From NCBI GenBank assembly GCA_030595125.1, contig JAUVDV010000021.1, forward strand, positions 5,338 to 69,337: a stretch of 64,000 bases of DNA. The letters run 5' to 3'. A model generated the notes under the pieces. The model searched no databases. It was not told where the DNA came from and saw only the letters and a list, made by a program, of their open reading frames with translations. This document shows positions 5,561 through 54,715 of this stretch, one piece after another. Every line of letters starts with the position of its first letter. Within the stretch, counting starts at the first letter, position 1. Source of the stretch: Deltaproteobacteria bacterium. Lineage in GTDB: Bacteria > Myxococcota_A > Polyangia > JAAYKL01. The position numbers and the translations under genes are program-made.

Positions 5561-6388
5561 TCACTTCCCTTTCATTTCGTCCAAAAACTTCCATATGATG
5601 CGCGACGCCTCGTCTGGATTCTCTTCGACGGGGGAATGGCCGCAATTATTTATGACATGGAGTTCTCCGCCGGGGATGAGGCTTTCCAATTGCCTGCCCA
5701 CCTCCAGCGGGACCAGCGCGTCTTTCTCGCCCCAGAGGATGAGGGTGGGGCAGCTCACTTTTTCGACAATCTCGCCCACCGGTGACGGATTGGCCGTGGC
5801 CCGCAGAGCCTCGAGGGCGGACGCTCTCTTGTCGGCGAAGGTGTCGAACAGTCGGAGTACCTTGCCCCGGTCCATCCGGGAGGAATCAAAGAAAACGTCG
5901 TTCTCAAAATAGTCGACGAACATCTTGCGACCGTACATCCGAAACAATAGCTCGCCCAGAATCGGCTTGAGGGGCAGGCGTCCCTTGAGCGGGACCGGGT
6001 ACGGAAGACTGATAGCATCCACGAGCACCAGGCGCTTCACCCTGTCGGGGTATGTGGCAGCGAGTGTTATTGAGATACCCCCGCCCATGGAGTGTCCCAG
6101 GAGATCGAACCTGTCCAGGCCGAGGGAATCGGCCGTTCCGATCACCGAACGCGCGTACCCGTCCCAGGTGGGTTTGAACGTGCTGCTCGCGGTGGAGTCT
6201 CCGCAGTTCGGCAGGTCGGGGGCGATGGCGCGAATACCTTTGGGTATGCGTTCGCGCAGCTCATTGAAGGTCTCGCCGGACGCGAACAGGCCGTGGATCA
6301 TCAGGAGAGGGTTGCCCTCGCCGGATTCCGACAGGCCGATTTCTCCGTGTGGGGTGGAGATTGTCTTTTTGCTTGCCATGATGCTCAT
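5561..6388 (-). CDS. alpha/beta-fold hydrolase
   Basis: Nucleophile-elbow motif GHSMGG, catalytic His near the C-terminus (CGHSPVEENPDE). Length typical for the family. Confidence 0.75.
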   Translation of the reverse strand: MSIMASKKTISTPHGEIGLSESGEGNPLLMIHGLFASGETFNELRERIPKGIRAIAPDLPNCGDSTASSTFKPTWDGYARSVIGTADSLGLDRFDLLGHSMGGGISITLAATYPDRVKRLVLVDAISLPYPVPLKGRLPLKPILGELLFRMYGRKMFVDYFENDVFFDSSRMDRGKVLRLFDTFADKRASALEALRATANPSPVGEIVEKVSCPTLILWGEKDALVPLEVGRQLESLIPGGELHVINNCGHSPVEENPDEASRIIWKFLDEMKGK

Positions 6389-11753: not shown

Positions 11754-12092
11754 GTGAAGAATTACTATAGAGCGTCTTTTTTGATGATGATGATCGTGTT
11801 GCTTTTCGCAGTGTCTGCCTGCCACGAGGAGGAGGAGGAGAGCATCTGCGATCTGTACTGCTCCGCTTCGGAGGATTGCAGCTACGTGAGCGGCCAGATG
11901 TTCAGCTGGAGTGAGTGCCAGGACCAGTGTAACGAGGCCATGGAGCGCCATGAATCGATAGGCTGCGGGGACAGGATGGCGGACTTGTACTACTGCCTGA
12001 TCGATCTTCCGTGCCCGAGCTGGAACGATTACGGGGCAAGATGCGCCGCAGAGATCGATTACCTGGACCTCTGCGTGGGTGGGACTTCTTGA
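11754..12092 (+). CDS. small Cys-rich lipoprotein
   Basis: Signal/lipobox LLFAVSAC; 12 Cys in 112 aa. Confidence 0.45.
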   Translation: MKNYYRASFLMMMIVLLFAVSACHEEEEESICDLYCSASEDCSYVSGQMFSWSECQDQCNEAMERHESIGCGDRMADLYYCLIDLPCPSWNDYGARCAAEIDYLDLCVGGTS

Positions 12093-13246
12093 CAACGCTC
12101 GCGGCCCTGTTCCGCGCATTCCTCATCGGCCTGGCGGGCATGCTGTTCTTGGCGATCCTCTGGGTTGCGTTCTGGTCCTTTTACAACCCGTTCGTGGACG
12201 TTCCAGCTCCGTTGAAGAAATCCTTTCAATCGGTTCGTGGAGACGAGACGGGGAGGGTGCTCTTTCTGGGTGACTTTGCGCCCACGGATCGCGCGCTCCC
12301 GTATCTCGAGAAGCACGGATACGGATATCCCTACTCCAAAACACTCGCGCTCCTTGCGTCCCACGACGCCGTGCTGGCAAATCTGGAAGCGCCGATCACG
12401 ACCGCGCGGAGGCCCTGGCCGCTCCCCAAAAAATATACCTACAAGATCCATCCGGACGCGGTCCCCGCAATGCAGAGCGCCGGGATCGACGTGGTGACCC
12501 TGGCCAACAACCACTCCCACGACTACGGGCGACGCGGGCTTCACGACACCCTTCGCAACCTGGCCGGGGGAGGCATCGCTCACATCGGCGCGGGCATGTC
12601 GGAAGCGGCGGCGCGGCGGGGAATTGTCATCGAGACTTCCGGCGGGCGACTTGGGGTACTTTCCTACATGCAGGACCAGTTGCAGTGGCGAGTGTGGACA
12701 GGCGCCTTCGCCATGGACGCTCCGTTTCGAAACTGGTCCGGATCCGCCCGACTCGACTATTCCGATCTACTCGAGGATATCGAAAGATTGCGTTCCGCGT
12801 CCGACGTGGTCGCCGTGGTCGTGCACTGGGGCTCGAACTACAAACCGGTGAACGATCGCCAGCGTGCCATCGGGCGGGCCTGTATCGACTTCGGCGCCGA
12901 TGTGGTGATCGGGCACCACCCTCATCAGTATCAACCCGTGGCAATGCACAGGGGACGGCCCATCGTCTACAGCGTCGGCAACTACGCATTCGGAACTATC
13001 GGCAACTCCAAAATGCGGTTCGGCATGGCTGCGGCGCTCCACCTGCGGGATGGTCGGGTCAGGGGAATCGAGTTTACCCCCTTGCTCACACAGAATCGGA
13101 TTGTGAAATATCGCGTTCGCGCGGCCAGAGGTAAATACCTCAGGTCCTTTATGCATGATTTTATTGAAGAATCAGGGGCGGAAGGGGCGACCGTAGAAGA
13201 GCGAAACGAGGTCGCCTGGCTGGAACTCGAGCGACAATTAGAATAA
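12041..13246 (+). CDS. CapA/PGA_cap-family metallophosphatase-like protein
   Basis: N-terminal TM segment then a CapA-like region (VVTLANNHSHDYG, GHHPHQYQP, VYSVGNYAFG). Start uncertain: ATG at 12041 overlaps the upstream gene, TTG at 12089 is an alternative. Confidence 0.65.
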   Translation: MRRRDRLPGPLRGWDFLTTLAALFRAFLIGLAGMLFLAILWVAFWSFYNPFVDVPAPLKKSFQSVRGDETGRVLFLGDFAPTDRALPYLEKHGYGYPYSKTLALLASHDAVLANLEAPITTARRPWPLPKKYTYKIHPDAVPAMQSAGIDVVTLANNHSHDYGRRGLHDTLRNLAGGGIAHIGAGMSEAAARRGIVIETSGGRLGVLSYMQDQLQWRVWTGAFAMDAPFRNWSGSARLDYSDLLEDIERLRSASDVVAVVVHWGSNYKPVNDRQRAIGRACIDFGADVVIGHHPHQYQPVAMHRGRPIVYSVGNYAFGTIGNSKMRFGMAAALHLRDGRVRGIEFTPLLTQNRIVKYRVRAARGKYLRSFMHDFIEESGAEGATVEERNEVAWLELERQLE

Positions 13247-13334
13247 AAAAACGACTTTCGTAGTATTTCCTTGAAAAGGAGTAAAACGAAAGTTGGCGAA
13301 AGCAAATGATTGTGGTAGGTTCCCACCCCGCTAC

Positions 13335-13365
13335 GTTGACTTGGACACGTCAATAAAGACAGTAG
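13335..13365 (+). promoter_or_regulatory. putative promoter/operator palindrome upstream of ACP operon
   Basis: TTGACttggacacGTCAA inverted repeat with a TTGACT -35-like hexamer, in an AT-rich leader ~25 bp upstream of the ACP start. Confidence 0.25.
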
Positions 13366-13387
13366 ACCGTTATAGGACAAGAGCGAG

Positions 13388-13624
13388 ATGAAAAACCGAA
13401 TTGCAGAAATCATCATCAACGAGCTTAAGCTCAAGGACGTCACCGCCGACACATTCGATCCCAACCTGGACCTCATCGAGGACCTGGGGATAGACAGCAT
13501 GGAACTGACCACTATTGTGGTTGTCTTGCAGGATGAGTTCAGCATCAAAATAGATGAGGACGATTTCGGACAACTGACCACTCTGGCCAAGATTACCGAG
13601 TACATCGGGAGCAAGAAGGGCTAG
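13388..13624 (+). CDS. acyl carrier protein
   Basis: 78 aa with phosphopantetheine-attachment motif LGIDSMEL. Confidence 0.8.
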   Translation: MKNRIAEIIINELKLKDVTADTFDPNLDLIEDLGIDSMELTTIVVVLQDEFSIKIDEDDFGQLTTLAKITEYIGSKKG

Positions 13625-13630
13625 CCGATC

Positions 13631-14641
13631 GTGGGCGTTACCTTCAAGCAGATCCTTTCCGATCCTGTAATAGACGAGCGCTGGAATAGGGTAAAAAAGT
13701 ACTTTTTCCTGCGCGAGTCCACTTACGACATGACCTGTCGTTGCAACCTCAAGTGCGAGGGTTGCTATTACTACATCGGCGACAAACAGTACGCTAAGGA
13801 CGAGATGGACACGGGCAAGTGGCGCGCGCTTCTCACTGCGGAGAAAGAGCGGGGAATCACATTCGTCGTCCTCGCCGGCGCGGAGCCGTCTCTCGTGCCC
13901 GAGCTTTGCAAGGTCTGCTACGATGTCATTCCCCTGGGCGCCATCGCCAGCAACGGGTTGAAGCCATTTCCCAAGGATATCGGATATCGGATTCACATCT
14001 CCGTATGGGGCGACGACGAGGAGTCCAAAAAGTTTCGTGGACGGGCCTGCCTCGACCAGCAACTAAAGAGCTACGGTGGTGACGAGCGGGCGGTCTTCGT
14101 CTACACGTTTACAAAGCGAAATATCGACCAGGTCGACTCGGTGGTGGAGCGAATTGCGGCGTGTGGTGGAAAGATTCACTTCAACATGTTCTCGCCGACG
14201 GGCGGCTACACGGGTGAGCTCACCATGGACGCAGACGCTTTTCACCGCACCCGCGACAAGATGCTGGAGATGCTGGATCGGTATCCGGAGACGGTCCTCT
14301 ATTCCGGTTACAACGCCGAGGTTCACACGGATCCGGAGCGCTCGCTGCACGCCCGGTTCAAGTGCCCGTACCCGCGCTGCAACCCCGACACCAGGCTGGG
14401 GCTCGGTCGCAGCTTTCGCCAGTACCGATCGGACCTGACCTGGGATCGTTCCGTGGCCTGTTGTGTGCCGGATACCGATTGCCACGACTGTCGTCACTAC
14501 GCGGCCGGATCGGCCATCGTGACGGCCCGAATGGCGCAACACGTGAGCAGCGAACTAGAATTCAAAAAGTGGCTGGACTATGTGGACACCTACCTGGCCG
14601 TGTGGGTACAGGGCTATGAAAAAGGGACCAATCTGTGCTGA
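13631..14641 (+). CDS. radical SAM protein (paralog 1), C-terminal Cys-rich auxiliary region
   Basis: CNLKCEGCYY (CxxxCxxC); GAEPSL motif; C-terminal CPYPRC...CCVPDTDCHDC cysteines. GTG start 7 nt after the ACP stop. Confidence 0.75.
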   Translation: MGVTFKQILSDPVIDERWNRVKKYFFLRESTYDMTCRCNLKCEGCYYYIGDKQYAKDEMDTGKWRALLTAEKERGITFVVLAGAEPSLVPELCKVCYDVIPLGAIASNGLKPFPKDIGYRIHISVWGDDEESKKFRGRACLDQQLKSYGGDERAVFVYTFTKRNIDQVDSVVERIAACGGKIHFNMFSPTGGYTGELTMDADAFHRTRDKMLEMLDRYPETVLYSGYNAEVHTDPERSLHARFKCPYPRCNPDTRLGLGRSFRQYRSDLTWDRSVACCVPDTDCHDCRHYAAGSAIVTARMAQHVSSELEFKKWLDYVDTYLAVWVQGYEKGTNLC

Positions 14642-15645
14642 CCATAAACAATCTCATCCAGGACGAGGACACGCGTCGCAAGTACCATGATATAAAGACC
14701 ATGGTCGGATCCAGCGGAATGCGCAGTTCCATCTACGACGTCAACAATATCTGCAATCTGCGCTGCAAGGGTTGCTTCTATTTTTCCAGCGACCAGCACA
14801 AACTGGACGACCAGAAAGATCTCGATGTGCTTCAGGCATTCATCGAAAGAGAGAAGGCGCGAGGCGTCAACTACGCCATCCTCATCGGAGGCGAGCCGTC
14901 CCTGACCCTGGATCGCCTCGACGTCTGGTACGCAAATGTAAAATGCTCATCCGCTACCAACGGCATCAAGAAGATCGAACGGGATCGCTATCCTGATATG
15001 CGCGTGGGGATTTCCCTGTGGGGCGACGAGGAAGACGAGATCAGGTTGCGCGGCAAGAACACTTTCCTCATATCCCGGCAAAACTATCGCAACGACCCGA
15101 ACGTCTATTACCTGTACACCGTCACGGCGCAGACCATCGGCCAGATGGAAACCGTAACCAAGAAGATCGAGGAAGCGGGGCTGCGGGTTCACTACCAGCT
15201 GTTTTCCAACGATCAAGGTGAGGAAGGGATGGACTGGACCGAGGATCTTTACAAGGAGGTCCGTGACAACATGGACGCGATGCTCGACAAGTATCCGCAC
15301 GTTGTCATCTCGTCCAAATACTATCACGAGGTTCTCACCACCCAGACAATGTTAGGTCGGCGTTTCGGATGGATGGAGTGCCCGTCAGTTTCTGATGCCG
15401 TGGACAATCGCGATCCTCGACCCAAGAGGCTCGCCGGTTTCAACTCCTACGGATCGGACTACAAAACTGTCCACCGTTGCTGCACCTCTGTCACCCGCGA
15501 CTGCGCCACCTGTCACGACGGCGCCGCCACCATGTCGTGGGTAATGGTCAACAAGCGCGAGCACATGACCGACCCGGTGGACTTCGCCAACTGGGTGGAC
15601 GTCACCCACATGTTTGCAAAGCTCTACGAGTATATTCCCTGGTAG
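14635..15645 (+). CDS. radical SAM protein (paralog 2)
   Basis: CNLRCKGCFY; GGEPSL; C-terminal HRCCTSVTRDCATCHDGAA; clearly paralogous to the upstream gene. GTG start overlaps the upstream stop (GTGCTGA). Confidence 0.75.
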   Translation: MLTINNLIQDEDTRRKYHDIKTMVGSSGMRSSIYDVNNICNLRCKGCFYFSSDQHKLDDQKDLDVLQAFIEREKARGVNYAILIGGEPSLTLDRLDVWYANVKCSSATNGIKKIERDRYPDMRVGISLWGDEEDEIRLRGKNTFLISRQNYRNDPNVYYLYTVTAQTIGQMETVTKKIEEAGLRVHYQLFSNDQGEEGMDWTEDLYKEVRDNMDAMLDKYPHVVISSKYYHEVLTTQTMLGRRFGWMECPSVSDAVDNRDPRPKRLAGFNSYGSDYKTVHRCCTSVTRDCATCHDGAATMSWVMVNKREHMTDPVDFANWVDVTHMFAKLYEYIPW

Positions 15646-15668
15646 TTATCGGCGGCCGCCATCATCTG
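15594..15668 (+). repeat. direct repeat (left copy) = native 3' end of radical SAM gene + 23 bp
   Basis: tgggtggacgtcacccacatgtttgcaaagctctacgagtatattccctggta + ttatcggcggccgccatcatct; near-identical copy at 16437-16511. Confidence 0.7.
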
Positions 15669-16436
15669 AATTGTAAGGTTTACCCACCACCAAACGAGAA
15701 GAGCCCTCAATCTTTATCCCGCCCAAAACCTATAGGTCGCTTGCTTGATTTCTTTGTCGGGCTCACAAGCAGTCCGATGGCCTCGAAAACGACTTTGAAT
15801 TGTTTGTCGTGGTTTTTCATTTTTATATCGATGTCGGCGAGCTTTTTTGCGAGGGCCTTGTTTGTGGACAGGATCTCGCGCAGTCGTACGAAAGTTCGCA
15901 TGATGGCGATATTAACCTGGATGGCTCGTTGGCTGTTCAAGACGCTGGAGAGCATGGCCACGCCCTGCTCTGTGAAGGCGAGGGGATAATAGCGTCTACC
16001 CCCGTGTCCTTTTGAGGTGCCAGATTGGCACCTCAAGAATTCGTCCTTTGTGAGTTGAAACATGAAATCTTCGGGAAATCTGCCGATGTTTCGTCTGACA
16101 GCTCGATTCATGACTTTTGTTTCTACCTCGTAGAGTTGTGCGAGGTCAGAATCCAAAAGGACTTTCTGTCCGCGAACGATGCGGATCAGGCTGCCGACAT
16201 GTTCAATTGGTACTATTTCGCTTTTACTCATTTCACGATTCCTACTGGTTTTTGTGAGCCCGACCAATATGGCCCGGAGACACTTCTATGAAAGTTGAGC
16301 AACATTTATGCCTGCGATGCATCCCGAGTAGAATGCTTCTGTGGAGGGGATATGCAGATCTCAATTGTTGGTCAAAAGCGGCGAAACATACGGCGCCCGC
16401 CGCCACACGCTGCCGGAACCGCCGGGGGATCGAGTG
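15669..16436. mobile_element. 768-bp insertion flanked by ~75-bp direct repeats, carrying an ORF6N-domain gene
   Basis: Bounded by the duplicated 3' end of the radical SAM gene. No integrase or transposase is visible, so this is a possible remnant of an integrative element. Confidence 0.35.
15707..16267 (-). CDS. ORF6N-domain protein (phage antirepressor-like)
   Basis: N-terminal IVPIEHVGSLIRIVRGQKVLLDSDLAQLYEVETKVMNRAVRRNIGRFPEDFMFQLTKDEF matches the ORF6N/KilA-N-like domain fold pattern. Confidence 0.65.
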   Translation of the reverse strand: MVGLTKTSRNREMSKSEIVPIEHVGSLIRIVRGQKVLLDSDLAQLYEVETKVMNRAVRRNIGRFPEDFMFQLTKDEFLRCQSGTSKGHGGRRYYPLAFTEQGVAMLSSVLNSQRAIQVNIAIMRTFVRLREILSTNKALAKKLADIDIKMKNHDKQFKVVFEAIGLLVSPTKKSSKRPIGFGRDKD

Positions 16437-16511
16437 GGTGGACGTCACCCACATGTTTGCAAAGCTCTACGAGTATATTCCCTGGTAATTGACGGCGGTC
16501 GCCATCATCTT
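16437..16511 (+). pseudogene. duplicated 3' fragment of radical SAM gene (right copy of direct repeat)
   Basis: Encodes ...WVDVTHMFAKLYEYIPW*, identical to the C-terminus of the CDS ending at 15645. The upstream part of ORF 16288..16488 is unrelated. Confidence 0.6.
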
Positions 16512-16555
16512 CCCCTTCCCCCTCGCAGGGGAAGGCCGGGATGGGGTTCATCGGC
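16506..16555. terminator. palindromic ~50-bp element (ccccttcccc...ggggaagg) immediately 3' of ABC ATPase gene
   Basis: catcatcttccccttccccctcgcaggggaaggccgggatggggtt: GC-rich hairpin. A second copy lies at 54381-54430. Confidence 0.45.
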
Positions 16556-17294
16556 GTTGGTCCTGCAAGTGACGGCATACCAGCTGTACGAACGGGCTTT
16601 CGTGCTCCGGGTCCAGGTCTCCGGGGTTGCCGGTGAATACAATCCGCCCCCCGTCCATCACGGCGACATTGTCTCCCAGACGTTGGGCCTCCGAGGGGTC
16701 GTGGGTGACGTGAATGACCGTTGACCCATGTTGTTCAAAGAGCGACGCGAAGAGGTCCAGCAAGTCATCACGCAAACCAATATCCAGATTTGACAGAGGC
16801 TCGTCCAGAAGCACGGCGTCTGGTTCGAGCACCAATGCCCTGGCAATGGCAACCCGTTGCTGCTCGCCGCCCGAGAGCCGGGCAGGGTAGCGCCGGGCCA
16901 TGTTCTCGAGATCAACCTCCGCAAGAACGCGGGCGATCCTCTTTTTCTGTTCGTCACGAGCAACGCGTCTGGATTGCAGGCCGAAAGAAAGGTTCTCCTC
17001 GACAGTGAGGTGTGGCCACAGCGCCAGGTCTTGCAAAACCACAGCGAGATTTCTTTCCTCCGGAGGTGTATGGACTCTTCCCTTATCGCTGACCACGTCG
17101 CCCCGCAGCCGTACCAGACCACGGCTCGGAGCTGCGAATCCCATTATAATTCTCAACAGAGTCGACTTGCCCGAACCCGATGGGCCAAGTAACGACAGCA
17201 CTTCGCCCCTGGAGATTTCGAGTGATATGCTATCGAGAATCTGTGTCCGGTTGTAACCAAATGACACGTCTTGCAATGCGATGACGACGCTCAT
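16548..17294 (-). CDS. ABC transporter ATP-binding protein (Fe3+/thiamine-type importer)
   Basis: Walker A GPSGSGKST, signature LSGGEQQRV, Walker B LLDEP, H-loop. Confidence 0.85.
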   Translation of the reverse strand: MSVVIALQDVSFGYNRTQILDSISLEISRGEVLSLLGPSGSGKSTLLRIIMGFAAPSRGLVRLRGDVVSDKGRVHTPPEERNLAVVLQDLALWPHLTVEENLSFGLQSRRVARDEQKKRIARVLAEVDLENMARRYPARLSGGEQQRVAIARALVLEPDAVLLDEPLSNLDIGLRDDLLDLFASLFEQHGSTVIHVTHDPSEAQRLGDNVAVMDGGRIVFTGNPGDLDPEHESPFVQLVCRHLQDQRR

Positions 17295-18874
17295 GTCCGT
17301 CTCCTTGTCCGCAGCAGAAATCCGCCCAACGCCAGCAATACGGCGGTAAGCCCGGCATGTAAGATCGACAGCGCAGCTACAACGTCTTCGGGTCCGTTGG
17401 CCTCCAGAGTGAAGATGCGAATGGGCAGGGTCTCATAGCCTGCGGGATAAAAGACCACAACCGTTTCAAGATCGCGCAGACAAAAGACGGCCGCGATCAA
17501 CCACGCCACGAAGATCCTTCGTGAATGCATGGGTATGATGATCCGTCTCAGACGCCGCAGATAGCTGCCGCCGAATGCGCAAGCGGCGTCCTCGTAATCT
17601 GGTGAACTACTGCTCAACACTGCTGCGATGGTTCGCACGCCGATCACAGAATAGCGGGCAATCATCCCCACCACCATGATCGCCGCCGTGGCGTAGACGA
17701 ATTGTGTGCCAGGGCGGTTCCAGGTCGCCACGAGTCCCACGCCCAGGACAGCAGCAGGGGTAACGAACGCCAGTACCGCAGCGCCGTCGAGAAAGGAGCT
17801 CCCGCGTTTGCGACGCGCCAACCGGTGTCCAATGATTGTTCCGAGCACGGTAATGCCGGTAGCGCCGGCCGAGGCCACGAGGAGGCTGTTGATCAGGCTG
17901 TCACCCATCCATCGGCCCAGCCCTTCGAACCCGCTCAGTCCAGCCCTTGATCCCAGCGCTGCTATCGGAACAAAACCGAGGCCGCATATTATCCATACGG
18001 CAATACTGGCCGGAGCTCTCCACCGGCCAAGGTGGAAAATATTCCCTTGCGCCGAGCGGACGCCCATCGAGGCAAACGAGCGTCGCCCGATGAAGCGGCG
18101 TTCGATGAGGAGCAGGAGCAGCGCTATCCCTAGCAATGGAAGAACCAGCGCGAAGGCCTCTCCGGGCGCATAGTCTATTCCCCCGAGACGTGTGAACACT
18201 GCGGCCGCGTATGTCTTGACACGCAAGAACATTGGCACGCCGATTTCGGAAATGCTGAGTGCAAACACTACCAGAGCCGCAAGGGCGATGACCGGCCACA
18301 TCAGAGGTATGAGGATTCGCGTGATAACCCGCGCCGGGCGTGCGACGGATCGGGCAGCCTCTTCCAGGGATGGATCGATCCCTCGCAGACCAAGCACGGT
18401 CAACCCTGTTACCACCGGAGAAAACGCAAATCCCAGAGTGCCGATGAGTCCCGCCGGGCCAAAAAACAACTGCGAGGTATTTTGCGAACCCATCGCTCCT
18501 TGTTGACCGAACAAATGAAACCAGCCCAGAGCGACGAGGAACGGGGGGATGAAAAGTGGGAAACCATGCACAAGCAGGGCGATGGGGAGTCCCATGACGT
18601 CAGTTTTTCCGAGCAGCACTCCCATGGGAATACCGATGATGAGCGCGACTGCTGTGATCGCCAGTGCCAGACCAATCGTCCTGGCGAGCAGCGTCCACGT
18701 GCGAGAGGTCCCCAGTGTGGAATCGATCAGAGACAGCCAGTCGTCTGAAGCCAGAAACTCAACCATGAGAAGAACAAGAGGCGCAAGGACAAGGGCGAGC
18801 AGACAAACAACCGCAGACGAGGAAATCAACGGCTCTTGCGCCCTTTGCCATCGCGCGCTCAGAGCCCCACCCAC
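17291..18874 (-). CDS. ABC transporter permease (FbpB/ThiP-like, duplicated TMD)
   Basis: 527 aa, ~12 predicted TM helices in two repeated halves. Overlaps the ATPase gene by 4 nt. Confidence 0.8.
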   Translation of the reverse strand: MGGALSARWQRAQEPLISSSAVVCLLALVLAPLVLLMVEFLASDDWLSLIDSTLGTSRTWTLLARTIGLALAITAVALIIGIPMGVLLGKTDVMGLPIALLVHGFPLFIPPFLVALGWFHLFGQQGAMGSQNTSQLFFGPAGLIGTLGFAFSPVVTGLTVLGLRGIDPSLEEAARSVARPARVITRILIPLMWPVIALAALVVFALSISEIGVPMFLRVKTYAAAVFTRLGGIDYAPGEAFALVLPLLGIALLLLLIERRFIGRRSFASMGVRSAQGNIFHLGRWRAPASIAVWIICGLGFVPIAALGSRAGLSGFEGLGRWMGDSLINSLLVASAGATGITVLGTIIGHRLARRKRGSSFLDGAAVLAFVTPAAVLGVGLVATWNRPGTQFVYATAAIMVVGMIARYSVIGVRTIAAVLSSSSPDYEDAACAFGGSYLRRLRRIIIPMHSRRIFVAWLIAAVFCLRDLETVVVFYPAGYETLPIRIFTLEANGPEDVVAALSILHAGLTAVLLALGGFLLRTRRRT

Positions 18875-19902
18875 TCTCGCAACCAGGGCTGTATCCTGTT
18901 CATCGTATTTGCCACTTTTGGATAGTCGACGCTCATTACCCGGATGTCTTGCGCACGCATGACACCGGGCGGTGTGGTGACGCCGCTGCGCAACGGCATA
19001 TGAGCAGCGGATTCTGCCATCTTGTGCTCCACCCGGGCATCGAGCAGGCAGTCGATCAGGAGCCGGCCCGCCTTTGCGTTGGGACCATCCCTGATGAGCA
19101 CTACCGTCGTGGGCATGAACAGGGTCCCCATACCGTCCTGGTCGGGATACACGATCGAAACAGGAACGCCTGATTGCACAGCCTGGTAGGCGTCGTCGGT
19201 GTCGGTCAATCCGAATGCAATCTCGCCTGCGGTTACAAGCCGTTTGACTTCTCCGTTGGAGCTCGCAATGCGCACGTTATTTTCTTTTATTGATTTGAGA
19301 AAGTTGCGCGCCTCATCATCACCCCACTTTGCAAACAGGGATGCCACATGCATGGTCGTCGTGCCGAAAAGCGGGTTGGCGATAGCTGTCTGTCCGCGCC
19401 ATCGGGAGTCGGCCAGATCCCGTATGGACCGGGGCATGGCGTCAGCAGTTACAAGGTTGGTGTTTACCAGCAGAACGCGTGCACGCGCTGCGAAACCGGT
19501 CCAGTTTCCGTCCGGGGATTTGAAGGTTGCGGGAAGCCCCTGAGCCCGGGCCGATGTGTATGGTTCCACCAATTTCTTGTCGATGAGCACAAAGGGGCGC
19601 ACCGGGTCACCGGACCAGAAAACGTCAGCCTGTGGTTGATTGGCCTCGGCGATCAGTCTGTTGAGAACACCGGTACTCTTGGTTTCCTCAGTGTCAAAAA
19701 CCGCTTTCACATGCAGCCCCTCGGTCTCTTCACAGTGACGGAAGATGGGTTCGGAGAACACTTGATCCACTGATGTGTACACAACGACTTGCGCGCCCCT
19801 GCTGTCCTCGCCGCAACGGCAGCCATGCCCGATGACAAGTGCAAGAAATACAAGGAGGAACATGGATGCTCTCGTATTTGGCACCGATTTTTTCATGATC
19901 AT
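18859..19902 (-). CDS. ABC transporter periplasmic substrate-binding protein (FbpA/ThiB-like)
   Basis: Signal peptide; family-1 solute-binding fold features; operon partner of the permease and ATPase. Confidence 0.75.
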   Translation of the reverse strand: MIMKKSVPNTRASMFLLVFLALVIGHGCRCGEDSRGAQVVVYTSVDQVFSEPIFRHCEETEGLHVKAVFDTEETKSTGVLNRLIAEANQPQADVFWSGDPVRPFVLIDKKLVEPYTSARAQGLPATFKSPDGNWTGFAARARVLLVNTNLVTADAMPRSIRDLADSRWRGQTAIANPLFGTTTMHVASLFAKWGDDEARNFLKSIKENNVRIASSNGEVKRLVTAGEIAFGLTDTDDAYQAVQSGVPVSIVYPDQDGMGTLFMPTTVVLIRDGPNAKAGRLLIDCLLDARVEHKMAESAAHMPLRSGVTTPPGVMRAQDIRVMSVDYPKVANTMNRIQPWLREWVGL

Positions 19903-20558
19903 TGCGCCGGAGATGGGGCTTCGCTTACCGAAAGATCATCAAACTGGGTTACTGCGTCTGCCTTTGTCCATAGCCCGATCTTGCCCGCATTGGAGAATGT
20001 AGTGTCGTGAACATCGAGATGTTTTTCGCCGTTGAGATAACACTCGATGTGGTCTTCCCGCATGACAATTTTCAGGACATGCCACGCCTCGTGATCGATG
20101 CGCAATGCAGCGCTTTCCAGTTGTTTTCGTTGGCCATCCACCACCTTGTAGACCCGGAAATTGTCCTCGAGGGGGTTGTAACGCGCGACGTAATAGTTGT
20201 TCACGTCTTGGGCGCGCCAGACAAGCCCACCACCCTGATCGACGCGGCCGGATACGGAGCGCAGCCGGACTGAAATATCAACATCCCGGTAGCTGGAATT
20301 CTCCACCAACGCGACGTTGTAGATATGGTCTTCACTTGCGGCAAGTTGCGCCAGAACATGCGATTTGCTCCGCGCGGATTCATCGGTAGCGATCTGCCAC
20401 TTGCCAATCAAAGAAGTGAACCCGGCCGGCAGTTGTTCTGCAACGTCTTCTTCAAATCCCCATTTGTGGATAGTCGTTTCGTTTTCGCCGCTCCTGTCAC
20501 CACCACATCCACCGCAGACCGACACGGTTGCAAACATTGTCAAAACCAGGACCTTCAT
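19899..20558 (-). CDS. hypothetical lipoprotein (DUF1080/laminin-G-like jelly-roll)
   Basis: MKVLVLTMFATVSVCGGC lipobox. LVWRAQDVNNYYVARYNP...HVLKIVMREDHIECYLNG resembles 3-keto-disaccharide-hydrolase-like domains. Confidence 0.5.
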   Translation of the reverse strand: MKVLVLTMFATVSVCGGCGGDRSGENETTIHKWGFEEDVAEQLPAGFTSLIGKWQIATDESARSKSHVLAQLAASEDHIYNVALVENSSYRDVDISVRLRSVSGRVDQGGGLVWRAQDVNNYYVARYNPLEDNFRVYKVVDGQRKQLESAALRIDHEAWHVLKIVMREDHIECYLNGEKHLDVHDTTFSNAGKIGLWTKADAVTQFDDLSVSEAPSPAQ

Positions 20559-20736
20559 CTTTTTACCCTTCCTTGGCCGAGAATGAAGCAGCCTACCAGT
20601 GATTGTGAAAGGACGCCAAGAGGGTGGATGGAGAGGGTGGATGAAGGATATCTTCCGGATGCTCGACCCGGGTTGCAAATCAGGATAAAAGGCCTATGGA
20701 AACAGCCTGATCGGCTTTGTTATTGGAGTAAATGTT

Positions 20737-22005
20737 TTGAGAGAACGTATGAAGACGGACATCGTTCTTTGCGGCTACGACATGATCACGCCGCTGGGCG
20801 AAGGTCTCGACGATCAGTGGGATGCGTTCGCCGCCGGAAAGTCGGGGATAGACCGGGTGGGTCGATTCGAAGTCTCGGACGACTATCCTGTCAGGGTTTC
20901 CGGCGAGGTGCCAGCGGTCGACTTTTCAAGGTACGATTTCTGGAGCGAGCGCAACGCTGCCAACTGGTTCTCGCCTGTCATTTTTCACTCAATGCTGGTG
21001 GCGCAAAAAGCGCTTTCCCATGCGGGCATGACCATCGACGACGACAACGCCGGGCGCGTGGGCATCACGTTCTCCTCGGCCATCGGCGGTCTGGATGCCA
21101 TGATCAAGGCCGAGTCCAGGCTCCAGGAGGGGCTCACCCCGCACCCGTTCACCAACCCCAACGGATGTCTCAACCTCGTGGGCGGCAAGGTGTCCATCCA
21201 CACCGGCGCCAGGGGGCCGATCTTCAGCCCGGTGGCGGCCTGCGCAACGGGGAGCGCATCGGTGGCGACGGCGGCCATGTTGCTGCAGACCGGCAGGGCG
21301 GACGCGGTGATCGCCGGGGCCTGCGATTTTCCGGTCATCCCTTCGCTCCTGGCTTCCTTCGCGTCCATGAACGGCGCGTTTCAGAGCCGCAAGACAGACG
21401 ATCGCAGTCACGACGAACCCGCCAAAGCATCGCGTCCGTTCTCGGTCGATCGGAAGGGTTTCGTGGTCTCCGAGGGGGCGGCCGCTATCCTTGTCGCCAC
21501 CCGCGGATTCGCCGACTCGAACGGCCTGCCGGTGAGGGCGGTGATAGAGGGCATCGGCATGACGTCAGACGCGAGGCACTACGTTGCGCCGGCACTACCG
21601 ACCATCACCAAGTGTATTGAGGAGGCTATTTCCGACGCGGGTGTCAGGCCTCGGGACATTCAGGCCGTCAACGCCCACGCGGCGTCCACCGGAGTTGGAG
21701 ATGCCACCGAGGTCAAGGCGCTTAAGGCGGTCTTTGGCGATGATTTTCAGCTCCCCGTTTCCGCCAACAAGTCCCAGATCGGACACACAATGGGCGCGTC
21801 GAGCGCCATCGAACTGATCATGACTTCGGAGGGTATCCGAAAATCTGCCCTGCTTCCCACGATCAATCACGAGCCCGATCCAAAGCTGGACATCGACGTT
21901 GTCTCCGAGGGTTCCCGCCCAATGGAACATCACCGAGTGCTCTCCAATTCCTTCGGCTTCGGCGGCTGCAACGTCTGCCTGGTCGTGGGAAAGGGCGACG
22001 TCTGA
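20737..22005 (+). CDS. beta-ketoacyl-ACP synthase II-like (FabF family)
   Basis: Active-site Cys (VAACATGSASV), catalytic His residues (NAHAASTGVGD, IGHTMGASS), C-terminal NSFGFGGCNV. Confidence 0.8.
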   Translation: MRERMKTDIVLCGYDMITPLGEGLDDQWDAFAAGKSGIDRVGRFEVSDDYPVRVSGEVPAVDFSRYDFWSERNAANWFSPVIFHSMLVAQKALSHAGMTIDDDNAGRVGITFSSAIGGLDAMIKAESRLQEGLTPHPFTNPNGCLNLVGGKVSIHTGARGPIFSPVAACATGSASVATAAMLLQTGRADAVIAGACDFPVIPSLLASFASMNGAFQSRKTDDRSHDEPAKASRPFSVDRKGFVVSEGAAAILVATRGFADSNGLPVRAVIEGIGMTSDARHYVAPALPTITKCIEEAISDAGVRPRDIQAVNAHAASTGVGDATEVKALKAVFGDDFQLPVSANKSQIGHTMGASSAIELIMTSEGIRKSALLPTINHEPDPKLDIDVVSEGSRPMEHHRVLSNSFGFGGCNVCLVVGKGDV

Positions 22006-22012
22006 CCGCAAC

Positions 22013-23389: not shown

Positions 23390-23466
23390 GCAGGACCGAA
23401 TTTTCTTTTTCCGAAATCCCGGCGTGCGATAATGATAGAGTTCAGACGAGAGAAAGAGAGGCCGGG

Positions 23467-52060: not shown

Positions 52061-54715
52061 TCAACCTGGCCACCACAGGTCAATAACGGTCTCGATCAGG
52101 CCGGGATCTTTCGAAGGCCGGTCGCCGACGGTATCGCATCCGCAGCCGTCATCGCCGCTGCCGGGGGGACTCTCGATGACGGAGATGTGCGCCAACGCTT
52201 CGGCGAAGAGGCCCGTGTCATCCCGAACCCTGGCCTTCAGGATATACTCGCCGATCTCTTCGAAGGTCACCTCTCTGTTGGAGGCGGCGGTGTAGTCGTC
52301 ATCCCAGGTGCCGTCGTAGTCGTCATCCCACTTGATCTGGAGCTGGCTCTCATCGCTGTCTTCGTCCTGGACCACAACTTCAATTACCATTGGCTTTCCT
52401 GCAAAGGCTTCCCCCGGGACCAGGCTGACGGTGGGCGCCACGCCGTCATTTGATACGCCCAGCGCGCCGGCGGCGTTCAGTCTCCCCCAGCCGTAGGCAT
52501 AGTTGGGAACATCGCCCACCATGTCGTCCACGTGCGCGCCGTCCCTGATGGCCTGCGTTGCGTCGTCGCCTACGATTCCGATCTGTGCCAGCATCGCCGT
52601 GACGCCGGTTACGTGGGGACCGGCGCCGGACGTTCCACCGAACGGAGCTACCGCGCCGTGCGGGACGACGTCACCGCCGGAGGCCTGTCCGTGGGCGGTG
52701 GCTGCCCATGGGTTGTCAGGGGCGGTGATGTCCGGCTTTTGTCGTCCGTCGATGGTCGGCCCCTGGCCGGAGTAGTAACGCACTTCACCGGGATCACCCT
52801 CCGCGTAGAACCACGGTTCTTCCGGTGTGGTGGGGTGTCCGGTATGCGCGCCGATGGCGATGCAGGTCTCCGAGGTCGCGGGCCAGCCGATGGTCCTGTC
52901 ATCTGTGGCGATGCTCTCGTCCCATGCCACGCCTACTCCCCAACTGGAAGTGTTGTCCGACAGATATGCATCGATATTCAGATCGCCAGCGCCCTGTTCG
53001 ACTGCGCTCAGCAACCAATCGCCCAGGGGGATTTCACTGGCAGAGCTATCCGCATACAAGATGACCTCATGAAAACGGGTCCCCTTCACCGTCTCCAGAT
53101 AGCTATGATAATACTGCGCGCCGCCGCTCAGCGGGCCGGTCTCCATGGTCGTTGTCAGGACGATGGGATCGCCGACGGGCGGAGTCAGGGTCAGGAGTGC
53201 GTCACCTATCCCTCGGAGGTTGATCGAGAGGTTGATGTAGTAGAGTCCTTGAAGGTTTGAAACTTCGAAGGCCGCCTGCTGCGAACCTCCCGATGGGAGT
53301 TCCATGCGCGTATGCTTGCGACCGCCGCCGGTGTTTCCGACGGGGCAGGTGTGCGTCACCCCGTCTGATACGGTGGATTCATCGACCATCACGGAGGTGA
53401 TGTCCGTTCCGTCGAGTGGCTCGCCGTACCAGTTGGCCCGCTCGTGCAGAACCACGTCGGCGCCCTCCGAGAGCACCCATGTGAGTCCCGTGCCGCCGTA
53501 TCCGGCGTCCATGTCAACTGCGAGCATGAGATCCACGCCCGGCGCCACGCCGACCCATCGCCGGCCTGCCAGGGGAACATCGCCCGCGATGATGGACATC
53601 ACTCCGGTGGCGTGCCCTGCCGCAGAGAAGACATCCGATTCGTTCAGGAAGTTGGTATCAAACTCCGCCAGATCCACACCCCGTTCGTAGACGCGATCAA
53701 TCGTCTCGTAACCGGAGTAGTTGAAGAAATGGAAAACCTTTGCGATCTTCGAGGTGCCCAGCCGCGCAACCCGCTCGCCCTTGTCGAGGATCCCGTTCGC
53801 GTTGAGATCATCGGGTACGAAGAGCGGTTCTCCCAGTGCAGGGGTTTCGTCGTCAAATCCGTTGGCTGCGCCGTAGTCGCGCTCGCCGTTGGCGTTCTCG
53901 TCAATGTAAAGCCAATCGATGGCGGGTTCAAAGCCGTCCTCCCGCGCATCGACAGGGTAACCGTATTGGAGCATGACCGTCTCCGAGCGCAGCAGCAGGC
54001 CGGTTTCGTTCAGCGCGACGCCGTCGCCGTCAAGGTCGATCGCGTCGATACCGGGGGTAAACGCCTCGTCGCCGTCCACGTCGATCCAATCGAAATACCC
54101 CGCGTCGGCGCGGAAGAACTGGGGGTGAAAGATATCGGCGTTCGTATCTATGTTCGCCACGAGGATTCCTTCTCCGGTGAGCAAGTCCATGGTCGGTTGG
54201 CTTCCCCAGGCGGCCTTCAATCCTATCAAATCCGCGCTGTGATCCATCGGAGCAGGCCCCCGTGCCGGCGCGGACACTATTTGTTGCACGTGGGATAATC
54301 GGGACAGCGCCTGCAGGGCGTCGCGGTCCACTGTCGCCGGGACGAACTGCCTGTAATGTAAAATGCCTTTAAAGCGGTCTCCATCATCTTCCCCTTCCCC
54401 TACCTCAGGGGAAGGCCGGGATGGGGTTAGTTTTCGGAGGTGCGCGCCGGCCGCCTCCAGTGAACAGAGAATTTCACTAGTGGCCGGTGTGTCCAGACGG
54501 ATCACCACCGGTACCAGGTTCGCGTAACGCACACATGCAGCTTCGTCTATGGACGGACCGTGCACCATCCGGGGCACAGCGTGCTCGATTTCGAGCAGAA
54601 CCCTCGAATCCACCTTTGTCTGGATCAGATTCTCGGCGTCGGACTGTGCCCATGCTGTGTTTGCGGCAAGTAGCAAAATGGCTGATAAAGCTAGGTTTTT
54701 GTGCATCGCTGACAA
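52061..54715 (-). CDS. subtilisin-like serine protease (peptidase S8) with I9-like propeptide and inserted TSP3-like Asp loops
   Basis: Signal peptide; Asp region VANIDTN; His region AGHATGVMSIIAG; Ser motif GTSGAGPHVTGVTAML. Confidence 0.8.
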   Translation of the reverse strand: MSAMHKNLALSAILLLAANTAWAQSDAENLIQTKVDSRVLLEIEHAVPRMVHGPSIDEAACVRYANLVPVVIRLDTPATSEILCSLEAAGAHLRKLTPSRPSPEVGEGEDDGDRFKGILHYRQFVPATVDRDALQALSRLSHVQQIVSAPARGPAPMDHSADLIGLKAAWGSQPTMDLLTGEGILVANIDTNADIFHPQFFRADAGYFDWIDVDGDEAFTPGIDAIDLDGDGVALNETGLLLRSETVMLQYGYPVDAREDGFEPAIDWLYIDENANGERDYGAANGFDDETPALGEPLFVPDDLNANGILDKGERVARLGTSKIAKVFHFFNYSGYETIDRVYERGVDLAEFDTNFLNESDVFSAAGHATGVMSIIAGDVPLAGRRWVGVAPGVDLMLAVDMDAGYGGTGLTWVLSEGADVVLHERANWYGEPLDGTDITSVMVDESTVSDGVTHTCPVGNTGGGRKHTRMELPSGGSQQAAFEVSNLQGLYYINLSINLRGIGDALLTLTPPVGDPIVLTTTMETGPLSGGAQYYHSYLETVKGTRFHEVILYADSSASEIPLGDWLLSAVEQGAGDLNIDAYLSDNTSSWGVGVAWDESIATDDRTIGWPATSETCIAIGAHTGHPTTPEEPWFYAEGDPGEVRYYSGQGPTIDGRQKPDITAPDNPWAATAHGQASGGDVVPHGAVAPFGGTSGAGPHVTGVTAMLAQIGIVGDDATQAIRDGAHVDDMVGDVPNYAYGWGRLNAAGALGVSNDGVAPTVSLVPGEAFAGKPMVIEVVVQDEDSDESQLQIKWDDDYDGTWDDDYTAASNREVTFEEIGEYILKARVRDDTGLFAEALAHISVIESPPGSGDDGCGCDTVGDRPSKDPGLIETVIDLWWPG
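54381..54430. repeat. second copy of the ~50-bp ccccttcccc/ggggaagg palindromic element, lying in-frame inside the S8 protease propeptide-linker coding region
   Basis: ccatcatcttccccttcccctacctcaggggaaggccgggatggggtt; translated in the gene frame as SRPSPEVGEGEDDGDRFKG. Confidence 0.55.

What the first reader, a model, noticed from the sequence alone, without database searches (positions are those of the whole stretch)
15594..16511. ~75-bp direct duplication of the radical-SAM gene 3' end flanking a 768-bp insert that carries an ORF6N (antirepressor-like) gene
Sequence 15594-15668 (last 52 nt of the radical SAM CDS plus 23 nt) recurs at 16437-16511, with 3 mismatches in the non-coding part. 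Between the copies lies a minus-strand ORF6N-domain gene typical of phage/ICE cargo. The right copy continues into the locus' native terminator palindrome. This is the signature of site-specific integration into a gene's 3' end, with the element supplying a replacement 3' end (as in tRNA/tmRNA-targeting islands), but here into a protein-coding gene. The integrase has since been lost, or the insert is a minimal satellite.
Basis: seen in the sequence. Interest (0 to 1): 0.6.

Follow-up and report, generated by a model that had tools for sequence, protein, structure and literature searches.

The report
Defence-gene cassette inserted with long target duplication
A single foreign gene (an ORF6N-domain candidate anti-phage gene) has been inserted just after a radical-SAM gene, and 76 bases of the target were duplicated so the host gene stayed intact; this integrase-free insertion mode is rarely noticed but recurs for this gene family across many bacterial phyla.

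Summary
The repeat is real. Window 15592-15667 recurs at 16435-16510 (72/76 identical; the first 53 nt are exact and are the rSAM gene's last 17 codons plus TA).

The two copies bracket a 767-nt, lower-GC insert. It carries one intact minus-strand gene (15707-16231), an ORF6N domain protein that matches PADLOC candidate defence family PDC-S05 over its full length.

The five closest orthologous loci are empty sites: the rSAM stop is followed 16-17 nt later by the ketoacyl-synthase (KAS) gene. A 722-nt block (gene plus about 200 nt upstream) recurs at 92% identity in an unrelated context on another metagenome contig. The cassette is therefore mobile.

No integrase, transposase, terminal inverted repeats or conserved ends are present. 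Among 138 related ORF6N loci, 18 (13%) show the same bracketing direct repeats of 30-215 nt. Each repeat is locus-specific (hsdM/hsdS junction, release factor, glutamate synthase, tRNA-Lys 3' end). Shifted control windows gave 4 of 253 (1.6%).

This fits "insertion with long target duplication", described for restriction-modification genes, better than att-site integration.

The "native terminator palindrome" is not native. It is a dispersed REP-like element at the edge of a separate 4.2-kb ABC-transporter insertion.

The parts
14635..15645 (+). Radical-SAM gene (336 aa), the host target gene. It is intact, and its last 51 coding nt plus stop lie inside repeat copy R1.
   Evidence: ORF. Pfam Radical_SAM/Fer4_12. 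Orthologues at 73-95% identity, most of them the same 336-aa length.
15592..15667 (+). R1, the left copy of the 76-nt direct repeat. It holds the functional 3' end of the rSAM gene plus 22 nt downstream of the stop.
15668..15706 (-). 39-nt tail between the ORF6N stop codon and R1. It is part of the insert but is not shared with the L003 or L004 copies of the cassette.
   Evidence: Homology to L003 ends at 15711 and to L004 at 15716.
15707..16231 (-). ORF6N-domain gene (174 aa), PADLOC PDC-S05 candidate anti-phage gene. Predicted as an N-terminal alpha/beta DNA-binding domain followed by a long C-terminal helix.
   Evidence: Pfam PF10543 E=4.6e-33. PADLOC PDLC04856 E=8e-55, protein residues 1-168 on profile positions 1-174 of 177. 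PHROG anti-repressor E=3.5e-27. AlphaFold model pLDDT 74.5, helix 101-156. Third-codon-position excess of differences against L003, 9/11/23.
16232..16434 (-). 203-nt upstream (promoter/leader) part of the cassette. It is 91% identical to L003 and ends exactly at the edge of R2.
   Evidence: No Rfam match. No unusual RNA fold, z=0.17.
16435..16510 (+). R2, the right copy of the repeat: an orphan pseudo-3'-end of rSAM with no rSAM sequence upstream of it.
16497..16547 (+). 51-nt dispersed palindromic (REP-like) element, hairpin 16514-16521/16528-16535. Its first 14 nt are the last 14 nt of R2. It ends 1 nt before the stop codon of the convergent ABC ATPase gene.
   Evidence: 98% identical to L001 3056-3105 at a non-orthologous site. 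Second window copy at 54376-54427.
16548..20757 (-). Separate 4.2-kb insertion relative to orthologous loci: ABC ATPase 16548-17294, permease 17291-18874, PhnS-like binding protein 18859-19902, and a 259-aa lectin/3-keto-disaccharide-hydrolase-like gene 19899-20678. It is not part of the cassette but forms its right-hand context.
   Evidence: Absent between rSAM and KAS in L001, L002, L085, L086 and L088. Pfam/NCBIfam annotation.
20737..22005 (+). Ketoacyl-ACP synthase gene, the ancestral immediate neighbour of rSAM. Its first ~8 codons have been replaced (MKTDIVLCG against MTRPASSGDIVLCG in L001).
54376..54427 (+). Second copy of the REP-like palindromic element.

Best explanation
What it is. 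The 767-nt insert is a one-gene mobile cassette: its own upstream region plus an ORF6N/PDC-S05 candidate defence gene. [quoted passage not shown] That stretch comprises the last 53 nt of rSAM, about 9 nt of spacer, and the first 14 nt of an adjacent REP-like element. Because of the duplication, the rSAM reading frame was not broken.

How it most likely happened (inferred). No dedicated recombinase is involved. The duplication is a by-product of host recombination or repair. One route is capture of the incoming DNA at a break with long staggered ends that are then filled in. The other is single-crossover (Campbell-type) entry of a circularised fragment that carried a short stretch of target homology.

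After insertion (inferred). The two 53-nt identical segments are a substrate for RecA-mediated precise loss, amplification, or release of a cassette-plus-repeat circle that can re-enter homologous sites in relatives.

What is shown. The repeat, the foreign cassette, the empty sites, the absence of mobility genes, and the recurrence of the architecture in the gene family are shown.

What is inferred. The molecular route of duplication, the order of events (the cassette arriving after the REP-like element and ABC segment), and the defence function of the gene are inferred.
For: Repeat and gene.

Empty sites: in the five closest orthologous loci the rSAM stop is followed 16-17 nt later by KAS. 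L088 shares the identical 53-mer.

Cassette mobility: a 722-nt block at 92% identity lies in L003 next to a ferredoxin gene, with one boundary exactly at the R2 edge and the other at the stop codon. GC is 0.50 against 0.56-0.60 in the flanks, in both hosts.

No recombinase: the only non-syntenic segment contains ORF6N, ABC genes and a lectin-like gene.

Recurrence in the family: 18 of 138 ORF6N loci have direct repeats of at least 30 nt bracketing a 546-1341-nt single-gene insert, against 4 of 253 shifted control windows (Fisher p=5.7e-6, odds ratio 9.3).

Repeats are local target sequence: the hsdM 3' end/hsdS start (L038 94 nt, L130 38 nt), a release-factor 3' end (L015 215 nt, downstream copy decayed with stops), a glutamate-synthase 3' end (L005 46 nt), a tRNA-Lys 3' end (L108 32 nt), and terminators or promoters (L092, L166, L062). 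No motif is shared at the junctions.

Order of events: the last 14 nt of the repeat belong to a dispersed element with three known copies, so the duplication post-dates that element's arrival.

Precedent: long and variable target duplications (46-423 bp) flank restriction-modification genes with no other mobility genes, including a single mcrA gene (PMC2853133, read; that paper cites Nobusato et al. 2000, Gene 259:99).
Against: No relative is available that has the ABC segment and REP-like element but lacks the cassette. Only 53 of the 76 repeated nt are therefore confirmed as single-copy at an empty site.

All four mismatches lie in the last 23 nt and none in the first 53. That is unexpected for simple decay of an orphan copy. 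It hints that the two copies may be mosaics of two alleles (import from a relative by homologous recombination), or that gene conversion has acted.

Against real neighbouring ORFs of 130-260 aa, the enrichment of flanking repeats is only modest: 6 of 123 controls against 18 of 138, p=0.03. This is partly because some neighbours look like similar cassettes.

87% of family loci show no detectable repeat.

The window comes from a metagenome-assembled contig and no reads were available.
Confidence: 0.65

Rival explanations
1. Site-specific integration by a tyrosine or serine integrase. The 76-mers would be attL and attR, the element would have supplied a replacement 3' end for rSAM, and the integrase has been lost or acts in trans (a minimal satellite).
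For: The topology is exactly that of 3'-end-targeting islands. One family member, L108, is flanked by a duplicated tRNA-Lys 3' end, a classical integrase target. The mismatches are confined to one end of the repeat, as expected if the crossover lay within the identical 53 nt.
Against: There is no recombinase gene in the insert or in the non-syntenic 5.1 kb. The insert is only 767 nt. Related cassettes sit in unrelated targets, with repeats of 20-215 nt that share no core and no conserved end motif. The nearly identical cassette in L003 carries no rSAM-like sequence at its ends. The repeat includes 14 nt of a host dispersed element, which a promiscuous element would not carry.
Confidence: 0.1
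2. Homologous import. The duplication was not made in this chromosome. A circle or fragment (cassette plus one repeat) from a closely related strain that already had the structure entered by RecA-dependent single crossover within the 53-nt identity. R1's tail is then donor sequence and R2's tail is recipient sequence.
For: There are 0 mismatches in the first 53 nt and 4 in the last 23 nt. R2's tail is identical to the REP-like element consensus (GGTCGCC...), while R1's has GGCCGCC. Direct repeats of this length support such cycles, as proposed for restriction-modification genes in PMC2853133.
Against: 53 nt is short for efficient RecA crossover. An original duplication event at this same target is still required in the donor lineage, so this describes spread and not origin. 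No second allele has been observed.
Confidence: 0.15
3. ORF6N and the ABC-transporter genes are remnants of one larger island (5.1 kb or more) that landed between rSAM and KAS. The repeat would be a by-product of later internal rearrangement or deletion.
For: Both pieces are missing together from all five close orthologous loci.
Against: The repeat brackets only the ORF6N cassette. L003 shares only the 722-nt module. GC is 0.50 for the cassette and 0.57 for the ABC segment. R2 is not contiguous with KAS, so a single duplicative event cannot give this order.
Confidence: 0.07
4. Assembly artefact, or a chance local duplication unrelated to the insert.
For: The source is a metagenome-assembled contig. 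A chromosome with an empty site plus a free circle sharing a 53-mer would give the same assembly graph for k of 53 or less.
Against: The copies differ at 4 positions, and each has a unique junction on both sides. The final k of common assemblers is 55 or more, which spans the 53-nt identity (general knowledge). The same architecture, at 86-98% repeat identity, occurs in many independent assemblies.
Confidence: 0.03

Closest known systems
Insertion with long target duplication of restriction-modification genes (Nobusato et al. 2000, Gene 259:99; Furuta et al. 2010, NAR, PMC2853133)
   Same: A small insert without integrase or transposase. It is flanked by direct repeats much longer than transposon target duplications and of variable length and sequence. 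The repeat is single-copy at the empty site of a relative and often overlaps the 3' end of the neighbouring gene. A single-gene case (mcrA) is on record.
   Different: The cargo is not a restriction or modification gene. The protein has no recognisable nuclease domain, so the published idea that the cargo's own double-strand cutting drives the event does not transfer directly. Here only 53 of the 76 nt could be checked against an empty site.
Integrase-borne islands and prophages that target the 3' end of tRNA, tmRNA or protein genes
   Same: Direct repeats contain the 3' end of the target gene; the gene stays intact and an orphan copy lies on the far side of the insert.
   Different: No integrase is present, the insert is 767 nt, no conserved att core is shared among related cassettes, and the targets are unrelated.
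PADLOC PDC-S05, a 'phage defence candidate' found by guilt-by-embedding in type I RM, BREX and DISARM loci (bioRxiv 10.1101/2024.01.29.577857). One PDC-S05 representative reduced plating of T7 and T5 about 1000-fold (bioRxiv 10.1101/2024.09.26.614923).
   Same: Full-length match to the PDC-S05 profile PDLC04856. 13 of 160 family loci have an hsdM-like gene in the fetched flanks, and two are embedded between hsdM and hsdS with a duplicated junction.
   Different: The tested representative is described as having a RhuM domain, which the window protein lacks in Pfam. Here the gene sits in a lipid/ACP biosynthesis cluster and not in a defence locus. Neither paper's main text mentions flanking duplications (one search found none of those terms in the first paper).
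Insertion-duplication by single crossover of a circular molecule (Campbell-type), and homology-facilitated illegitimate recombination during transformation (general knowledge)
   Same: Both give a heterologous insert flanked by two copies of a short homologous segment without any element-encoded enzyme, and they predict mosaic repeat copies.
   Different: These are known mainly from laboratory constructs and transformation experiments. Their natural role for this gene family has not been shown.
Integron gene cassettes
   Same: A single promoter-proximal gene unit that appears in many contexts. L010 even shows serial units separated by copies of one repeat.
   Different: No attC-like imperfect palindrome lies at the 3' end (the cassette ends 7-39 nt after the stop codon). 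There is no integron integrase, and the repeats are target-derived.

Membership tests
Insertion with long target duplication (Nobusato/Furuta) | Insert flanked by direct repeats longer than 30 bp | tested here: met
   76 nt, 72/76 identical.
Insertion with long target duplication (Nobusato/Furuta) | The repeat sequence occurs once at an empty site in a related genome | tested here: inconclusive
   The 53-nt rSAM part is single-copy at the empty sites of L088 (identical), L001, L002, L085 and L086. The last 23 nt are specific to this lineage (spacer plus REP-like element), and no relative with that arrangement was found.
Insertion with long target duplication (Nobusato/Furuta) | No integrase, transposase or prophage genes in the insert; insert shorter than 20 kb | tested here: met
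   767 nt carrying one ORF6N gene. The flanks are syntenic with L001 apart from the ABC segment.
Insertion with long target duplication (Nobusato/Furuta) | Cargo is a restriction-modification gene (a criterion of the published screens) | tested here: not met
   The cargo is ORF6N/PDC-S05. This is a criterion of the screen and not of the mechanism.
Integrase-mediated att-site integration | Recombinase gene in or next to the element | tested here: not met
   None in 15646-20757. The rest of the 64-kb window was not scanned protein by protein.
Integrase-mediated att-site integration | Related elements share a conserved att core or target | tested here: not met
   Repeats in at least 18 family loci are unrelated in sequence, length and target.
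IS element / transposon | Terminal inverted repeats, short fixed target duplication, transposase | tested here: not met
   The only inverted repeat (16 nt, 15753-68/16252-67) lies inside the cassette and is weaker in L003. No transposase. The duplication is 76 nt.
Diversity-generating retroelement (template/variable repeat at a gene's 3' end) | Reverse transcriptase nearby; mismatches confined to template adenines | tested here: not met
   No reverse transcriptase gene in the insert. The mismatches are G/A, A/G, T/A and C/T.
PADLOC PDC-S05 | Full-length match to a PDC-S05 profile | tested here: met
   PDLC04856 E=8.1e-55, protein residues 1-168 on profile positions 1-174 of 177; PDLC04869 E=6.4e-56.
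PADLOC PDC-S05 | Confers protection against phage | not testable with these tools
   Only a report for another representative with a RhuM domain (bioRxiv 10.1101/2024.09.26.614923).
Pfam ORF6N (KilA-N-related DNA-binding domain) | Domain match above the gathering threshold | tested here: met
   113.8 bits against a cut-off of 27.8, residues 28-109.

The most novel reading that the evidence does not exclude
ORF6N/PDC-S05 genes may be autonomous one-gene mobile elements. [quoted passage not shown] That would be a mechanism by which defence genes become "embedded" inside operons such as hsdM-hsdS without breaking them, using a mobility mode that needs no terminal repeats and no classical recombinase.
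Probability: 0.1. Interest if true: 0.85.

Novelty: new member of a known kind. Interest (0 to 1): 0.5.

Why it matters
Insertion with long target duplication was described in 2000-2010 for restriction-modification genes, and its mechanism was still unresolved in the 2010 study read here. This window shows a clean, recent example (53 nt still identical) for a different cargo, a widespread single-gene candidate defence family.

The survey suggests that the architecture recurs in about one locus in eight of that family, across Acidobacteriota, Proteobacteria, Desulfobacterota-like MAGs, Omnitrophota and others.

It also offers a concrete, testable explanation for how small defence genes come to sit inside type I restriction operons and next to housekeeping genes without inactivating them: the gene ends are duplicated. 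Finally, it supplies many natural junctions for working out the mechanism.

Tried and rejected
- Exact-sequence look-ups of the window's ORF6N and rSAM proteins, and of P0001, found no contig, so the source genome could not be read beyond the window.
- The window's genome is not among the GTDB representatives, so other copies in the same genome could not be sought. Within the window there is no second copy of the insert or of an ORF6N gene.
- Rfam found nothing in 15400-16800, and the promoter/terminator consensus scan found nothing.
- The cassette's 203-nt upstream region folds no better than shuffles, z=0.17.
- A PDB sequence search gave no meaningful hit. Foldseek against PDB gave only weak winged-helix/MerR-like resemblances (E>0.2) and no nuclease or recombinase fold.
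- A six-frame protein-level search for decayed duplications was too noisy, because paralogous neighbours score in the controls (41 of 253); it was not used.
- L053's 65-nt perfect \"flanking repeat\" turned out to be the shared C-terminus of two tandem ORF6N paralogues and was discarded.
- The 16-nt inverted repeat inside the cassette was considered as transposon ends and rejected: it is internal and not conserved by compensation in L003.
- A DGR template/variable repeat, an integron attC and a dif-type site were considered and rejected (see the membership test).
- The idea that the 23 nt after the stop are simply the native rSAM-KAS spacer was dropped once the last 14 nt proved to be part of a dispersed element.
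- Literature searches for ORF6N, PDC-S05 and RhuM with hsd genes found no description of flanking duplications for this family.
Full report
1. THE OBSERVATION

The repeat exists. The repeat finder gives 15592-15667 and 16435-16510, 76 nt, 72/76 identical. The exact 53-nt core occurs exactly twice in the window and in none of 100 shuffles.

The core is the last 17 codons of the radical-SAM ORF 14635-15645 plus the TA of its stop codon. All four mismatches lie in the following 23 nt: TAG/TAA, A/G, T/A and C/T.

Upstream of the right copy (R2) there is no rSAM-like sequence, so R2 is an orphan 3' end.

Between the copies lie 767 nt carrying one intact minus-strand gene, 15707-16231 (174 aa):
- Pfam ORF6N, E=4.6e-33.
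- PADLOC PDC-S05, E=8e-55 over the full length.
- PHROG "anti-repressor", E=3.5e-27.
- No NCBIfam model.

An AlphaFold model (pLDDT 74.5) shows a small alpha/beta domain followed by one long helix, residues 101-156. Foldseek against PDB finds only weak winged-helix/MerR-like resemblances and no nuclease or recombinase fold.

2. EMPTY SITES

The rSAM protein has close relatives at 73-95% identity, in MAGs labelled Myxococcota or Deltaproteobacteria where named. I fetched six orthologous loci.

In L088 (95% aa identity; its last 53 nt are identical to the window), L001 and L002 (93%), L086 (85%) and L085 (83%), the rSAM stop is followed 16-17 nt later by the start of a ketoacyl-ACP synthase gene. 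L087 (80%) has one unrelated gene between them.

BLAST of the window against L001 shows synteny on both sides: window 10234-15645 matches L001 1499-7011, and window 20758-25801 matches L001 7052-13011. The only non-syntenic stretch is 15646-20757.

That stretch holds:
- the ORF6N insert and R2;
- a hairpin;
- three ABC-transporter genes;
- a 259-aa lectin-like gene.

It holds no recombinase.

The KAS gene has lost its ancestral first ~8 codons and uses a new start.

3. THE INSERT IS A DISCRETE MOBILE CASSETTE

The ORF6N protein has near relatives. The contig of P0003 (L003, another metagenome) shares a 722-nt block at 92% identity with window 16432 to 15711 on the minus strand. This block is the CDS plus about 200 nt upstream.

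One boundary falls 2 nt from the R2 edge and the other at the stop codon. L003's flanks are unrelated: a convergent ferredoxin gene lies 9 nt downstream, and nothing in them matches the window.

Other features of the shared block:
- The upstream 203 nt are as conserved as the CDS (91% against 92%).
- CDS differences are enriched at third codon positions, 9/11/23.
- In both hosts the module has about 50% GC against 56-60% in the flanks.

More distant relatives (L210-L212, 76-79% nt identity) share only the CDS.

4. THE "NATIVE TERMINATOR PALINDROME" IS NOT NATIVE

Window 16497-16547 reads GGTCGCCATCATCTTCCCCTTCCCCCTCGCAGGGGAAGGCCGGGATGGGGT. It is 98% identical to L001 3056-3105. In L001 that sequence lies in an extra ~96 nt between a WD40 gene and the next ORF, a site that is empty in the window.

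A further copy is at window 54376-54427. It is therefore a dispersed REP-like element.

All three copies begin GGTC[G/T]CCATCATCT. These are the last 14 nt of R2, and R1 has them with one mismatch. The duplicated target therefore already contained the edge of this element, which means the ORF6N insertion came after the element (and probably the ABC segment) had arrived next to rSAM. This ordering is an inference.

The ancestral KAS 5' end reads CGGCCCGCATCATCC. It resembles the element's CGCCATCATC, which suggests the ABC segment was joined there through short homology. This too is an inference.

5. IS THE FLANKING DUPLICATION A PROPERTY OF THE FAMILY?

The search for related loci returned 80 loci from species-representative genomes and 80 from metagenomes. 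These were the best 80 of at least 593 and at least 588 confirmed relatives, and are 49-73% identical to the query. They come from a very wide range of phyla.

For each locus I compared the 700 nt upstream of the ORF6N match with the 700 nt downstream, same strand only.

| Set tested | Loci or windows with a direct repeat of at least 30 nt |
|---|---|
| ORF6N loci with adequate flanks | 18 of 138 (14 with at least 40 nt) |
| Same-size windows shifted by 2-3.4 kb | 4 of 253 |
| Real neighbouring ORFs of 130-260 aa | 6 of 123, all in three loci |
| Distant viral relatives | 0 of 26 |

- Against shifted windows, Fisher p=5.7e-6 and the odds ratio is 9.3.
- Against real neighbouring ORFs the contrast is weaker, p=0.03.
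- One of those neighbouring control hits is an MNT-type nucleotidyltransferase, itself a typical accessory cassette.

The repeats bracket inserts of 546-1341 nt that contain just the ORF6N gene. They are different in every locus:
- the hsdM 3' end overlapping the hsdS start (L038, 94 nt; L130, 38 nt);
- the last 215 nt of a release-factor gene, with the downstream copy decayed and carrying stops (L015);
- the last 46 nt of a glutamate synthase gene (L005);
- the last 32 nt of tRNA-Lys (L108);
- terminators or promoters (L092, L166, L062).

These are documented.

The downstream repeat usually starts 7-12 nt after the ORF6N stop (39 nt in the window). The upstream gap is 24-290 nt. No motif is shared at the junctions. 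The orientation relative to the host gene varies: it is convergent in the window and co-directional in L015, L038, L005 and L108.

6. INTERPRETATION

Together, these features match "insertion with long target duplication":
- long, variable, target-derived repeats;
- tiny single-gene inserts;
- no mobility genes and no conserved ends.

This mode was described for restriction-modification genes, with repeats of 46-423 bp, often overlapping a neighbouring gene's 3' end, including a lone mcrA gene. That paper gives no established mechanism and suggests only that double-strand breakage is involved (PMC2853133).

I therefore read the window as one such event. Its most likely route is host recombination or repair and not an att-specific integrase.

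The concentration of all four mismatches in the last 23 nt leaves room for a variant. The cassette plus one repeat may have been imported by homologous single crossover from a related strain that already carried the structure.

The integrase model, a single composite island, and an assembly artefact are each less likely, for the reasons listed under the rival explanations.

7. FUNCTION OF THE CARGO

PDC-S05 is a "phage defence candidate" family defined by guilt-by-embedding in type I RM, BREX and DISARM loci (bioRxiv 10.1101/2024.01.29.577857). One PDC-S05 representative, described as carrying a RhuM domain, lowered plating of T7 and T5 about 1000-fold (bioRxiv 10.1101/2024.09.26.614923).

In my sample 13 of 160 loci have an hsdM-like gene in the fetched flanks. 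The window protein lacks a RhuM hit, so the defence role is an inference by family membership only.

Viral contigs hold few relatives, and those are more distant: 41 relatives, mostly 40-52% identical. "Phage cargo" is therefore not the best description of this subfamily.

8. NOVELTY

The held literature contains nothing on flanking duplications for ORF6N, PDC-S05 or RhuM genes. The phenomenon itself is known.

I rate this as a new member of a known kind and of moderate interest. It gives a recent, clean example and a large natural sample for an insertion mode whose mechanism was unresolved in the 2010 study I read. It also gives a mechanistic lead on how defence genes become embedded in operons without damaging them.

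Noticed in passing
window 16497-16547 and 54376-54427; L001 3056-3105: A dispersed ~51-nt palindromic (REP-like) element, GGTC[G/T]CCATCATCTTCCCCTTCCCC-loop-GGGGAAGGCCGGGATGGGGT. It has two copies in the window and one in a relative at a site that is empty in the window, so it is itself mobile or recombinogenic.
   Followed up: partly
window 16548-20757 and 20737-20757: A 4.2-kb segment has been inserted between rSAM and KAS relative to five orthologous loci. It carries an ABC transporter with a PhnS-like binding protein and a lectin/3-keto-disaccharide-hydrolase-like gene. It removed the ancestral KAS start and first ~8 codons and supplied a new start. The junction shows short homology (CGCCATCATC against CCGCATCATC).
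   Followed up: partly
window 12011-15645 and 20737-23400; L001, L085, L086, L087: A conserved cluster of unknown product: PGA_cap-like protein, acyl carrier protein, two tandem paralogous radical-SAM enzymes, ketoacyl-ACP synthase and a MatE exporter. Orthologues of the second rSAM enzyme extend at 57-60% identity to MAGs labelled Spirochaetota, Thermodesulfobacteriota and Desulfobacteraceae; the cluster itself was seen only in the loci listed here.
   Followed up: no
L010 694-767, 2701-2774, 3571-3644 (Omnitrophota SAG): Three copies of a 74-nt promoter-like repeat separate two units: an ORF6N gene with a Mutator-family transposase fragment, and a small HTH-gene unit. All lie ahead of a DUF3800 gene. 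This looks like serial insertions at one target, each re-duplicating it. A second 43-nt repeat (1501-1543, 3348-3390) occurs once in each unit.
   Followed up: partly
L108 654-729 and 1681-1712: An ORF6N cassette of 951 nt lies between tRNA-Lys(ttt) and a 32-nt duplicate of the tRNA 3' end. This is the classical integrase signature, but no integrase lies between the repeats.
   Followed up: partly
L053 4181-4744 and 5001-5534: Two tandem ORF6N paralogues; the upstream one is 53% identical to the window protein. Their last 65 nt are identical, and an 83-aa ORF lies between them.
   Followed up: partly
L063 8601-8679 / 9442-9520; L074 8707-8748 / 9925-9966; L155 4838-4912 / 5917-5991: Other small genes near ORF6N loci are also bracketed by direct repeats of 42-79 nt. 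They include a 228-aa protein with no Pfam match and an MNT-type nucleotidyltransferase. The insertion mode may therefore be general for small accessory cassettes.
   Followed up: partly
L003 1-93: Upstream of the L003 cassette, a 19-nt sequence (CTCCCACTCCTTTGAAAGG) occurs twice, flanking three tandem copies of CCGATCTAAAGAC. This is unexplained.
   Followed up: no
window 15753-15768 and 16252-16267: A 16-nt inverted repeat (15/16 complementary). One arm lies 21 nt upstream of the ORF6N start and the other lies in its C-terminal coding region. It is weaker in L003. It could be an operator or chance.
   Followed up: partly
window 16288-16488 (+): A 66-aa ORF starts in the cassette's upstream region and reads into R2 in the rSAM frame, ending with the rSAM C-terminal 17 residues. 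The L003 equivalent has a stop after 32 codons (by eye from the sequence), so it is probably not a gene.
   Followed up: partly
L088 (protein P0165): The closest rSAM relative is called with a frameshifted C-terminus after residue 259, although its last 53 nt are identical to the window. This is a likely sequencing error on a 3.5x-coverage contig.
   Followed up: no
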